From Halomicronema hongdechloris C2206 (GTDB taxonomy: Bacteria; Cyanobacteriota; Cyanobacteriia; Phormidesmidales; Phormidesmidaceae): a stretch of DNA of 32,000 nt. The notes below the pieces were generated by a model, which ran no database searches, was not told the origin of the DNA, and was given only the letters and a program-made list of their open reading frames with translations. The position numbers and the translations under genes are program-made. Of the stretch, positions 25,117-26,277 are shown piece by piece (the first letter of the stretch is position 1; the number at the start of each line of letters is the position of its first letter). The stretch covers positions 1,110,001-1,142,000 of the forward strand of contig NZ_CP021983.2 in the NCBI RefSeq assembly GCF_002075285.3, written 5' to 3'.

Positions 25117-26277
25117 ATGATTCCACAGCTTGGCAGAGCAGTTGTTCTAGATCATCCTGATCACCTTGAAGAATCTACAAGCACTGCCAATTCATCCAAG
25201 ACTATTTCAAGACGGGGGCAGATCCATCCATGGGAACGCTTTTGTCGATGGGTCACAAGCACTGAGAATCGTATTTATGTTGGCTGGTTTGGGGTACTCA
25301 TGGTTCCCACTCTTGCTACGGCAGCGATTGTCTTTGTGCTAGCGTTCCTAGCTGCCCCAGCGGTCGACATCGACGGTACAGGACGATTAGTTTCGGGTGC
25401 CCTAAACCACGGTAATAATCTCATTACTGGGGCGGTGGTACCTACATCAGCCGCTATTGGTCTGCACTTCTATCCGATTTGGGAGGCAGCCTCACTACAG
25501 GAATGGCTGACAAACGGCGGTCCCTATCAGCTGATAGTGCTCCATTTTTTAATCGGCATTATCTGCTATCAAGATCGGGAATGGGAATTAAGCTACCGCC
25601 TCGGTATGCGGCCCTGGATTTCCCTAGCGTTTACAGCTCCTGTAGCAGCAGCGACATCAGTATTGCTGATATATCCCGTTGGTCAGGGGAGTTTTTCCGC
25701 TGGTATGCCCTTAGGCATCTCAGGCACCTTCACGTTTATGCTTCAGTTTCAAGCTGATCACAATATTCTGGCTAACCCATTCCATCAGCTTGGGGTGATT
25801 GGAGTATTTGGCGGGGCATTATTCTGTGCTGCCCATGGATCGTTAGTGACCTCGGCATTATTCAGGCGTGGTCCTAGTCGTACTTCAGGCTGGGTTAAAC
25901 CAGCGTGGGCCAGGGAAAGTGAGGGTACCTATAGCTTTGAGCATATCCAGGTAAACCAACAAAAGTTATTCTGGCGTGGCATGAGTTTTAGAAGCTCACG
26001 ATCACTGCATTTTTGTCTAGCTGCCTTTCCAGTAGCGGGGATTTGGTCAGCAGCCTTGGGCGTTGATATGGCTGCCTTTGGGTTCGATCCGTCATCTGGG
26101 GCGAACAGCTACCTTCAGCAGACTACCGTGCCCACCTGGATTGACTTGGTAACCCAGGTAAATTTGGGAATTCAGGCTATTGAGGATCAGCCTACAGCTC
26201 AACAATTTCCTCTAGTTCTCGGGGAAGAGCCTGAGGAAGATAATGCCTTACTAAATGATTCCTTACTGAACCCCTAA
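25117..26277 (+). CDS. chlF: Chlorophyll f synthase ('super-rogue' D1 paralog)
   Basis: 386 aa, D1-like throughout the five helices, with YZ, H190, H198, H215 and H272 equivalents kept. D170->Ala (GSFSAG), E189->Asp (QADHN). The C-terminal [14 protein letters not shown] is replaced by [20 protein letters not shown]…. The [11 protein letters not shown] motif reads [11 protein letters not shown] (QD codons at 25570-25575). The DE loop is strongly diverged. GAGGAG lies upstream of the ATG. Confidence 0.9.

What the first reader, a model, noticed from the sequence alone, without database searches (positions are those of the whole stretch)
25117..26277. Super-rogue D1 = chlorophyll f synthase (ChlF)
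This is a D1 homolog with the pigment, YZ and quinone-side His residues intact but no way to bind the Mn4CaO5 cluster:
- D170->A (GSFSAG)
- E189->D (QADHN)
- the C-terminal ligand block [14 protein letters not shown] replaced by [32 protein letters not shown]

The stromal DE loop (QB/bicarbonate region) is rewritten ([43 protein letters not shown]). The [11 protein letters not shown] segment reads [11 protein letters not shown]. This Q127/D128-equivalent pair is the motif reported to confer light-dependent oxidation of Chl a to Chl f. There is also a 25-residue N-terminal extension. It is followed 73 nt later by psaA2, suggesting co-transcription with far-red PSI.
Basis: partly seen in the sequence, partly recalled or inferred. 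Interest (0 to 1): 0.85.

Follow-up and report, generated by a model that had tools for sequence, protein, structure and literature searches.

The report
Known chlorophyll f synthase gene (chlF)

Summary
D170→A, E189→D, M127/G128→Q/D, the C-terminal Mn-ligand block is replaced, the DE loop is rewritten, there is a 25-residue N-terminal extension, and a 73-nt spacer precedes psaA2.

The protein is 100% identical, over the 351 residues NCBI annotates, to a Halomicronema hongdechloris protein. The downstream PsaA matches the solved far-red PSI of that organism end to end (PDB 6KMX). The gene is locus XM38_010900. It was named ChlF in the 2019 genome/proteome paper, where it was the protein most induced by far-red light (>17-fold), and a 2023 modelling paper lists the same substitutions.

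In my tree it falls inside the Q127/D128 clade (82% bootstrap) together with the genetically validated Synechococcus PCC 7335 ChlF. It carries the group-1 ("super-rogue") signature at all four discriminating residues and lacks the group-2 insertion at 253, so it is not a sentinel D1. It lies inside a complete FaRLiP cluster.

chlF→psaA2 adjacency with a short, terminator-free spacer is conserved in related filamentous lineages. That is compatible with co-transcription, which has been proposed before but is not shown here. A conserved upstream DNA motif that I found independently is also already published.

Verdict: reader supported; already known; low interest.

The parts
25117..26277 (+). chlF (psbA4, super-rogue D1), chlorophyll f synthase, 386 aa. 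This is H. hongdechloris locus XM38_010900.
   Evidence: Literature.
25106..25113 (+). Shine-Dalgarno sequence (AAGAGGAG) for the ATG at 25117. It supports the long 386-aa start over NCBI's ATC start at 25222.
   Evidence: The N-terminal motif is conserved in homologues.
25117..25191 (+). 25-codon N-terminal extension relative to D1 ([19 protein letters not shown]...). It carries the lineage-specific M-x-(T/P)-Q-(F/L/I)-G-R-A ... R-P-D-Q-L motif.
   Evidence: Extensions of ChlF are known, and truncating one raises Chl f yield.
25570..25575 (+). Codons for Q152/D153, which correspond to D1 positions 127/128 (the 'QD motif').
   Evidence: Paper.
24899..24954 (+). Conserved upstream element. Its core is TTCCTCAGTTTTTCA at 24926-24940, 191 nt before the ATG. 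It corresponds to the published FaRLiP 'chlF motif', a candidate RfpB target.
   Evidence: 13 hits in 166 kb of FaRLiP loci, 0 in 742 kb of control loci. Described in the bioRxiv preprint.
26278..26350 (+). 73-nt chlF-psaA2 spacer. It has no terminator-like hairpin and is not structured, and only the RBS (GAAGGAG) is conserved.
26351..28705 (+). psaA2, far-red PSI PsaA, 784 aa.
   Evidence: 1-784 aligned to 1-784 of 6KMX chain aA, 1847 bits. 6KMX is the H. hongdechloris far-red PSI.
28778..31009 (+). psaB2, far-red PSI PsaB.
   Evidence: TIGR01336, 1440 bits. Synteny.
31156..31725 (+). psaL2, far-red PSI PsaL.
23910..24467 (-). Far-red paralogue of psbV (cytochrome c-550), transcribed divergently from chlF.
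   Evidence: Synteny. Paper: (XM38_010890).
22933..23757 (+). Far-red paralogue of psbO.
   Evidence: PF01716, 335 bits.. Paper: (XM38_010880).
11410..12492 (-). psbA3, the true far-red D1, with all Mn ligands intact. The mechanical ORF runs to 12579, but the real start is probably Met30 (MTTTLQRP).
   Evidence: 759 bits to 8EQM_A..
13295..22476 (-). Rest of the FaRLiP PSII/phycobilisome block: psbB2 (13295-14833), psbC2 (14939-16450), psbD3 (16558-17616), an allophycocyanin-family gene (17715-18275), apcE2 (18470-20869), and three allophycocyanin-family genes (20933-21412, 21423-21908, 22000-22476).

Best explanation
The gene encodes ChlF, the light-dependent chlorophyll f synthase of Halomicronema hongdechloris. 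ChlF is a very old paralogue of the photosystem II D1 protein.

Shown here:
- It keeps the D1 fold and every ligand needed for light-driven charge separation and quinone reduction: H118, Y161, H190, H198, H215, H272, S264 and F265.
- It has lost the residues that bind the water-splitting Mn4CaO5 cluster.
- It carries the Q127/D128 pair that marks all ChlFs.
- It sits in a far-red photoacclimation (FaRLiP) gene cluster, directly upstream of the far-red photosystem I genes.

From the literature:
- Orthologues are necessary for Chl f synthesis, and sufficient when expressed heterologously.

Inferred mechanism:
- ChlF takes the place of D1 in a monomeric PSII-like 'super-rogue' complex with D2, CP47 and CP43.
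- With no Mn cluster to re-reduce the photo-oxidised reaction centre, the complex's oxidising power, together with O2, converts the C2-methyl group of a chlorophyll(ide) a into the formyl group of chlorophyll f. That chlorophyll is probably bound near the Q127/D128 site at the CP43 interface.

Inferred regulation:
- Transcription is probably driven from a far-red-responsive promoter that contains the conserved upstream 'chlF motif'.
- The transcript probably reads through the 73-nt spacer into psaA2-psaB2-psaL2.
For: Identity of the gene:
- 100% identical over 351 aa to an nr protein of H. hongdechloris.
- The adjacent PsaA matches 6KMX chain aA over 784/784 residues.
- The papers name XM38_010900 as ChlF, give Q152/D153 in the 386-aa numbering, and report the same gene order (FRL-PsbO 010880, FRL-PsbV 010890, ChlF 010900).

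Family membership:
- Residue map.
- QD invariant in 15 homologues.
- All 28 QD sequences share N87A/S/P, F147, D170A/S/E, H252Q/R and lost C-terminal ligands; N298 is D/E in 26 of the 28. All 75 non-QD D1 sequences keep the full ligand set.
- The QD clade has 164/200 bootstrap. The window protein is 60-90% identical to QD sequences and 52-57% identical to other D1s.
- Its score is below the NCBIfam psbA equivalog cutoff, 463 against 596 bits.
- It shows the G1 state at all five G1/G2 discriminators.

Function of orthologues.

Induction: >17-fold at protein level in far-red light.

Operon idea:
- No terminator in the spacer, and the spacer is unstructured (z = +1.86).
- Spacers are 64-78 nt in L001-L003 and 150 nt in L007; L004 shows the same gene order.
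- chlF+psa co-transcription is proposed for lineages V and VI in the preprint.

Upstream motif: 13 hits against 0 in controls, matching the published chlF motif.
Against: - Catalytic activity of this particular orthologue has not, to my knowledge, been tested by knockout or heterologous expression. The assignment rests on orthology (64% identity to the genetically validated PCC 7335 protein) and on far-red induction.
- The chemical mechanism and the oligomeric state (super-rogue PSII or ChlF homodimer) are still debated in the literature.
- My tree contains no group-2 or group-0 D1 sequences. Exclusion of those groups therefore rests on residue signatures and on published trees, not on my own tree.
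- Co-transcription is inferred only from the spacer and synteny. An internal psaA2 promoter is not excluded.
Confidence: 0.93

Rival explanations
1. It is a group-2 'rogue/sentinel' D1. Such a protein forms an inactive PSII placeholder (for example in the dark or during nitrogen fixation) and has nothing to do with chlorophyll f.
For: Sentinel D1s also lack a functional Mn site and often carry E189D.
Against: - Published group-2 hallmarks are H332 kept, H252 kept, N298 kept, E333->A/S, and one residue inserted at position 253.
- The window protein has E332, Q252, D298 and D333, and its only DE-loop insertion is before T245.
- It carries the QD motif, clusters with PCC 7335 ChlF, lies in a FaRLiP cluster, and is induced by far-red light.
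Confidence: 0.01
2. It is ChlF, but it works as a ChlF homodimer that is independent of D2, CP43 and CP47, not as a D1 replacement in a PSII-like complex.
For: A homodimer was originally reported when ChlF was expressed in Synechococcus 7002. Chl f was also produced in a strain lacking D1 and D2 (cited).
Against: - Later work with two different ChlFs in Synechocystis found super-rogue PSII and RC47-type complexes and no homodimer.
- The window protein keeps D1-type residues at 198, 215 and 272, and it is encoded next to far-red D2, CP43 and CP47 genes.
- Nothing in my sequence analysis can discriminate between the two models.
Confidence: 0.12
3. It is a decaying or non-functional D1 duplicate.
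For: Loss of catalytic ligands and a score below the psbA equivalog cutoff.
Against: - Intact ORF with a strong RBS.
- About 140 invariant columns across 15 homologues from different genera.
- The same substitutions are fixed across the whole clade.
- The protein is detected and strongly induced.
Confidence: 0.01

Closest known systems
ChlF / PsbA4 of Synechococcus sp. PCC 7335 (P0068; UniRef name 'Light-dependent chlorophyll f synthase')
   Same: - 64% identity and the same QD clade.
- Same state at every signature position: A87, Q127, D128, F147, D189, Q252, D298, and C-terminal ligands lost.
- Has an N-terminal extension beginning M-I-Q-x-G-F-G-R.
   Different: - The PCC 7335 protein has a longer N-terminal extension (57 residues before the WERFC anchor, against 38 here) and S170 instead of A170.
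- Its function was shown by gene inactivation (own knowledge of Ho et al. 2016), whereas the H. hongdechloris protein has only expression evidence.
ChlF of Chroococcidiopsis thermalis PCC 7203 and Fischerella thermalis PCC 7521 (super-rogue PSII, Trinugroho 2020; PMC11946780)
   Same: Same family and same QD motif. An N-terminal extension of similar length is present (22 aa in PCC 7203 against 25 aa here).
   Different: - The sequence of the extension differs. The MxTQFGRA...RPDQL motif is restricted to the Leptolyngbya/Nodosilinea-type lineage.
- Gene context differs: in the Nostocales-type loci L008, L009 and L011, chlF is not followed by psaA2.
Far-red D1 (PsbA3) of the same cluster, window 11410..12492 (-)
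   Same: Same fold, same cluster and same far-red regulation. All charge-separation ligands are shared, and both have E130.
   Different: Only 54.7% identical. PsbA3 keeps D170, E189, H332, E333, H337, D342, A344, H252 and N298, has M127/G128, and is the water-oxidising subunit.
Group-2 rogue / sentinel D1 (e.g. Cyanothece ATCC 51142 PsbA4)
   Same: An atypical D1 that cannot support normal water oxidation. E189D is common in this group.
   Different: Group 2 keeps H332, H252 and N298, has E333A/S and an insertion at 253, lacks QD, and is expressed in the dark or during N2 fixation, not in far-red light.

Membership tests
ChlF (group-1 / super-rogue D1, chlorophyll f synthase) | Homologue of D1 (Photo_RC fold) that falls outside the standard psbA equivalog. 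| tested here: met
   PF00124 at 273 bits. TIGR01151 psbA at 463 bits, below its cutoff of 596. About 448 bits to solved D1 chains, against 759 for the window's true D1.
ChlF (group-1 / super-rogue D1, chlorophyll f synthase) | Gln-Asp at D1 positions 127/128 (the QD motif). | tested here: met
   Q152/D153. Invariant in 15 of 15 homologues. Present in 28 of 28 clade members and in none of 75 other D1 sequences. The motif is named.
ChlF (group-1 / super-rogue D1, chlorophyll f synthase) | Loss of the Mn4CaO5 ligands (D170, E189, H332, D342, C-terminal A344). | tested here: met
   A195, D214, E356, V367 and G369, with no CtpA-type Ala-Ser processing site.
ChlF (group-1 / super-rogue D1, chlorophyll f synthase) | Retention of the charge-separation and acceptor-side ligands (H118, Y161, H190, H198, H215, H272). 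| tested here: met
   All six are conserved. S264, F265 and Y246 are conserved as well.
ChlF (group-1 / super-rogue D1, chlorophyll f synthase) | Group-1 signature H252Q/R, N298D/E, E333 as D/E (Cardona 2015). | tested here: met
   Q278, D324 and D357.
ChlF (group-1 / super-rogue D1, chlorophyll f synthase) | Phylogenetic placement with experimentally validated ChlF. | tested here: met
   NJ tree of 60 sequences and 331 columns, rooted on D2. The QD clade, which includes PCC 7335 ChlF, has 164/200 bootstrap. Caveat: no G0 or G2 sequences were in the tree. Published trees place this protein in the ChlF cluster.
ChlF (group-1 / super-rogue D1, chlorophyll f synthase) | Encoded within a FaRLiP gene cluster. 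| tested here: met
   Flanked by far-red psbO, psbV, psaA2/B2/L2, apcE2, further apc genes, psbD3/C2/B2 and psbA3. Synteny is conserved in L001-L004 and L007.
ChlF (group-1 / super-rogue D1, chlorophyll f synthase) | Induced by far-red light. | not testable with these tools
   From the literature: XM38_010900 was the most up-regulated protein, >17-fold, one week after the shift to far-red light (PMC6416890).
ChlF (group-1 / super-rogue D1, chlorophyll f synthase) | Light-dependent conversion of Chl(ide) a to Chl(ide) f. | not testable with these tools
   Shown for orthologues from C. fritschii 9212, Synechococcus 7335, C. thermalis 7203 and F. thermalis 7521. I found no direct test for the H. 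hongdechloris protein.
Group-2 rogue / sentinel D1 | H332, H252 and N298 retained; E333 replaced by A/S/G; one-residue insertion at position 253. | tested here: not met
   E332, Q252, D298 and D333. The single DE-loop insertion lies before T245, not at 253 (criteria).
Standard water-oxidising D1 (groups 3/4, including far-red PsbA3) | Complete Mn4CaO5 ligand set, and a score at or above the TIGR01151 cutoff. | tested here: not met
   Five of the six direct ligand positions are changed (only E333 keeps a carboxylate, as D), and second-sphere H337 is also changed. 463 bits is below the 596 cutoff.

The most novel reading that the evidence does not exclude
This reading concerns the 25-residue N-terminal extension, which NCBI's current gene model cuts off (351 aa, ATC start at 25222).

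The extension carries a motif conserved across Leptolyngbya/Nodosilinea/Synechococcus-7335-type ChlFs: M-x-(T/P)-Q-(F/L/I)-G-R-(A/T)-x-A-x-(D/N)-R-P-(D/S)-Q-(L/I).

The motif could be a lineage-specific autoinhibitory or turnover signal that limits how much ChlF complex accumulates. This fits the report that deleting the unrelated-in-sequence extension of C. thermalis ChlF raises Chl f yield about 14-fold. If so, truncating it would be a simple route to higher Chl f production from this orthologue.

Everything else about the locus is already published.
Probability: 0.25. Interest if true: 0.3.

Novelty: already known. Interest (0 to 1): 0.08.

Why it matters
ChlF is the single enzyme that lets oxygenic phototrophs make chlorophyll f and extend photosynthesis to about 750 nm. 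It is a target for engineering far-red use in crops and algae, and a key case of a photosystem II reaction centre repurposed as a biosynthetic enzyme.

This particular gene comes from the organism in which Chl f was discovered. It has already been identified (2019) and analysed residue by residue (2023). Re-finding it adds no new biology.

It does show that the first-stage reader can recognise a super-rogue D1 from raw sequence.

The only practical by-product is that the RefSeq protein model (351 aa) appears to start 35 codons too late.

Tried and rejected
1. Exhaustive search of the 50%-identity representative library. ChlF and D1 are more than 50% identical and collapse into shared clusters. 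The output was mostly fragments and frameshifted or chimeric plant D1s, so it was useless for a phylogeny.
2. The look-up of encoding contigs with the 386-aa protein. Nothing on record, probably because the public gene call is the 351-aa form.
The source was identified instead through P0001 and 6KMX.
4. No group-2/sentinel or Gloeobacter group-0 D1 sequences could be obtained for the tree. I used published residue discriminators instead.
5. The primary paper on the QD mutagenesis (Trinugroho 2020) is not held. The statement that QD is critical rests on secondary citation. The statement that QD is sufficient when placed in D1 rests on my own recollection.
6. The tandem 14-nt repeat CATGAGCCTATTTA x2 at 24642-24669 is not enriched elsewhere in the window (5 matches at up to 3 mismatches, 2.6 expected). 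I did not pursue it.
7. I considered a terminator or structured RNA in the chlF-psaA2 spacer. None was found.
8. Structure prediction was not run. At 55% identity to solved D1 chains the fold is not in question, and homology models of this very protein are published.

Full report
**Observation.** The window has an ATG-initiated ORF at 25117..26277 on the + strand, 386 aa, exactly as reported. A GAGGAG Shine-Dalgarno sequence lies 5 nt upstream of the ATG. The protein is a member of the photosynthetic reaction-centre family (PF00124, 273 bits). It scores 463 bits against the NCBIfam psbA equivalog, below the curated cutoff of 596. Against solved structures it reaches about 448 bits to ordinary D1 chains. 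A second D1-like ORF in the same window (11410..12579, minus strand) reaches 759 bits to the D1 chains of the far-red PSII structures 8EQM and 7SA3 and keeps the [14 protein letters not shown] block.

That second protein, counted from its Met30, aligns 1:1 with residues 1-360 of solved D1 chains. I used it to transfer canonical numbering.
- H118, Y161, H190, H198, H215, Y246, S264, F265 and H272 are kept.
- The offset is exactly 25 residues.
- The DE loop is almost completely substituted, with one inserted residue.
- A 17-residue acidic tail follows the A344-equivalent position.
- The gap to the psaA2 ATG at 26351 is 73 nt.

**Source.** The best database hit, P0001, is 100% identical over its whole 351 aa and is named as a Halomicronema hongdechloris protein. 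The PsaA encoded immediately downstream aligns residue 1-784 to 1-784 of PDB 6KMX chain aA at 1847 bits, against 1555 bits for the next far-red PsaA. 6KMX is the far-red photosystem I of H. hongdechloris. The window is therefore from H. hongdechloris, the organism in which chlorophyll f was discovered.

**What it is.** The surrounding genes form a complete far-red photoacclimation (FaRLiP) cluster.
- On the minus strand: psbA3, psbB2, psbC2, psbD3, an allophycocyanin-family gene, apcE2 and three more allophycocyanin-family genes.
- Then far-red psbO (+), far-red psbV (-), this gene (+), and psaA2, psaB2, psaL2 (+).

I aligned 15 homologues from several genera. Q152 and D153 are invariant, together with about 140 other columns.

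I then classified 91 D1-family ORFs from 79 fetched genomic loci, 15 database homologues and the window's own ChlF, far-red D1 and D2 by signature residues.
- All 28 sequences with Q127/D128 also have N87A/S/P, F147, D170A/S/E, H252Q/R and lost C-terminal ligands, and they retain the six charge-separation ligands. N298 is D/E in 26 of the 28; L005_1 has H and P0109 keeps N.
- All 75 D1 sequences with M/L-G at 127/128 keep the full Mn ligand set.

A neighbour-joining tree (60 sequences, 331 columns, D2 outgroup) recovers the QD sequences as a clade in 164 of 200 bootstraps. The window protein is nested among Nodosilinea/Leptolyngbya-type sequences, in the lineage sister to the clade that contains the Synechococcus PCC 7335 protein, which UniRef names 'Light-dependent chlorophyll f synthase'. 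The window protein is 60-90% identical to QD sequences and 52-57% identical to all other D1s.

I could not obtain group-2 sequences for the tree. I used the discriminators published by Cardona et al. 2015 instead.
- Group 2 keeps H332, H252 and N298, has E333->A/S, and has a unique insertion at position 253.
- Group 1 ('super-rogue') has lost H332, has H252Q/R and N298D/E, and keeps D/E at 333.
- The window protein has E332, Q252, D298 and D333, and it has no insertion at 253.

It shows the group-1 state at all four residues and lacks the group-2 insertion at 253, so the sentinel reading is rejected.

**It is already published.**
- The 2019 genome/proteome paper names XM38_010900 as chlF and places it in a ChlF cluster in its PsbA tree. 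It reports it as the most up-regulated protein (>17-fold) one week after the shift to far-red light.
[quoted passage not shown] It lists the same substitutions (N87A/S, D170A/S/E, E189D, H252Q, Y147F, N298D/E, H332 variants) and builds PSII-ChlF models. It gives the neighbouring loci as FRL-PsbO 010880 and FRL-PsbV 010890, matching the window.

**How it most likely works.**
- Shown here: retention of all residues needed for charge separation and quinone binding, loss of the Mn site, the QD pair, and the FaRLiP context.
- From the literature: ChlF is required for Chl f synthesis and is sufficient when expressed heterologously. The reaction needs light and is blocked by DCMU. Two different ChlFs expressed in Synechocystis assemble into a monomeric PSII-like 'super-rogue' complex, with no homodimer detected.
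- Inferred: in this complex the oxidising equivalents that normally drive water splitting, together with O2, oxidise the C2-methyl of a chlorophyll(ide) a bound near Q127/D128 at the CP43 interface.
- The homodimer model from work in Synechococcus 7002 remains a minority rival. My data cannot discriminate between the two.
- That the QD pair is sufficient when introduced into D1 is my recollection of Trinugroho et al. 2020, which is not held in the library. The held papers say only that it is 'critical for activity'.

**Co-transcription with far-red PSI.**
- The 73-nt spacer has no terminator-like site. It folds less well than 199 of 200 shuffles.
- The order chlF->psaA2->psaB2(->psaL2) recurs in five of the twelve chlF loci (L001-L004, L007). 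All five are thin filamentous lineages.
- Spacers are 64-78 nt in the three closest relatives (L001-L003) and 150 nt in L007, and only the RBS is conserved.
- In the Pleurocapsa/Hydrococcus loci chlF lies between psbA3 and psbC2. In the Nostoc-type loci (L008, L009, L011) it is not followed by psaA2. The adjacency is therefore lineage-specific.
- A 2024 preprint already proposes, from synteny and metatranscriptomes, that chlF is co-transcribed with the psa genes in lineages V and VI and was so in the ancestral cluster.

It is not proven for this strain.

**Gene start.**
- NCBI's protein (P0001) begins 'MHPWERF'. This corresponds to an ATC codon at 25222 with no upstream Shine-Dalgarno sequence.
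- The ATG at 25117 has a strong Shine-Dalgarno sequence.
- The 35 extra residues are 89%-type conserved in the closest relative, P0002.
- They begin with a motif, M-x-(T/P)-Q-(F/L/I)-G-R-A ... R-P-D-Q-L, shared by most ChlFs of the Leptolyngbya/Nodosilinea/PCC 7335 type. A loose QxGR-like pattern matches 92 of 109 fetched QD proteins.
- The 2023 paper's numbering also uses the long form.

The long start is therefore correct. N-terminal extensions of ChlF are known, and deleting the 22-residue extension of C. thermalis ChlF raised Chl f from 0.1% to 1.4%.

**Side finding that turned out to be known.** A block upstream of chlF (24899-24954, core TTCCTCAGTTTTTCA at 24926-24940, 191 nt before the ATG) is conserved in related loci.
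- A degenerate pattern, TTC[AC]T[ACT][AG]GTT[CT]TTCA, occurs 13 times in 166 kb of FaRLiP loci. It is present in 12 of 13 loci, and 12 of the 13 copies are on the chlF strand.
- It occurs zero times in 742 kb around ordinary psbA genes.
- The pattern was derived from five of those loci. The seven others (L004, L005, L008-L012) are independent confirmations.
- It matches the ~61-bp T-rich 'chlF motif' found within 440 bp upstream of chlF in all FaRLiP lineages, which the 2024 preprint hypothesises to be the RfpB target.

**Verdict.** The feature is already known down to the individual residues in this very organism. Interest is low.

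Noticed in passing
window 25117-25221, compared with P0001: The NCBI/nr protein model for this gene (351 aa, 'MHPWERF...') starts at an ATC codon at 25222 that has no Shine-Dalgarno sequence. The ATG at 25117 has GAGGAG upstream and encodes an N-terminal motif conserved in homologues. The public model therefore looks 35 codons too short.
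   Followed up: yes
window 24899-24954 (core 24926-24940, +); also L001:5653, L002:5648, L003:3552, L004:5520, L005:5759, L006:4436, L008:2722, L009:5697, L010:317, L011:5701, L012:3715: Conserved motif TTC(A/C)T-N-R-GTT-Y-TTCA, with two TTCA half-sites 11 bp apart, upstream of chlF or far-red psbA/psbO. It has 13 hits in 166 kb of FaRLiP loci and 0 in 742 kb of control loci. It corresponds to the 'chlF motif' already described in bioRxiv 10.1101/2024.05.15.594131 as a putative RfpB site.
   Followed up: yes
window 15742-15928 (+): Rfam IsrR (antisense RNA of isiA) matches at 131 bits (gathering score 52), antisense to the far-red CP43 gene psbC2 (14939..16450, -). The most likely cause is nucleotide homology between psbC and isiA, not a real antisense RNA. 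Whether an antisense transcript exists here is unknown.
   Followed up: no
window 24642-24669 (+): Perfect tandem duplication of a 14-mer (CATGAGCCTATTTA x2) in the psbV-chlF intergenic region, about 450 nt upstream of chlF. It is not enriched elsewhere in the window. Its function is unknown.
   Followed up: partly
window 22933-24467; L001-L003: Far-red paralogues of psbO (+) and psbV (-) lie immediately upstream of chlF. The psbO/psbV/chlF/psaA2 arrangement is conserved in the three closest loci. The 2019 paper says their function is unresolved. It is unknown whether they serve far-red PSII or the ChlF complex.
   Followed up: partly
window 11410-12579 (-): The mechanical ORF for far-red D1 (psbA3) starts at a TTG 29 codons upstream of the likely true start, Met30 (MTTTLQRP) at 12492. 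Alignment to 8EQM_A begins exactly at Met30.
   Followed up: partly
window 1-11300: The left third of the window is unrelated to FaRLiP. It encodes a BBE/FAD oxidase (622-2001), a Ser/Thr kinase (2584-4500), a BioD-like AAA_26 protein (4497-5204), an M20 peptidase (5620-6828), DUF3318 (7304-7915), UreD (7922-8791), a TetR regulator (9486-10115), a PNPOx-like protein (10117-10605, -) and an SRPBCC/polyketide-cyclase-like protein (10665-11282). The cluster boundary is near 11.3 kb. The rfpABC regulators are not in the window; the 2019 paper puts them at XM38_010980-011000, downstream of the psa genes.
   Followed up: partly
P0069 (metagenome protein): This protein is ChlF-like (with QD) for its first ~300 residues. 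It then switches to a canonical D1 C-terminus with a complete [14 protein letters not shown] block. It is probably an assembly chimera of chlF and psbA reads, although a natural recombinant is not excluded.
   Followed up: no
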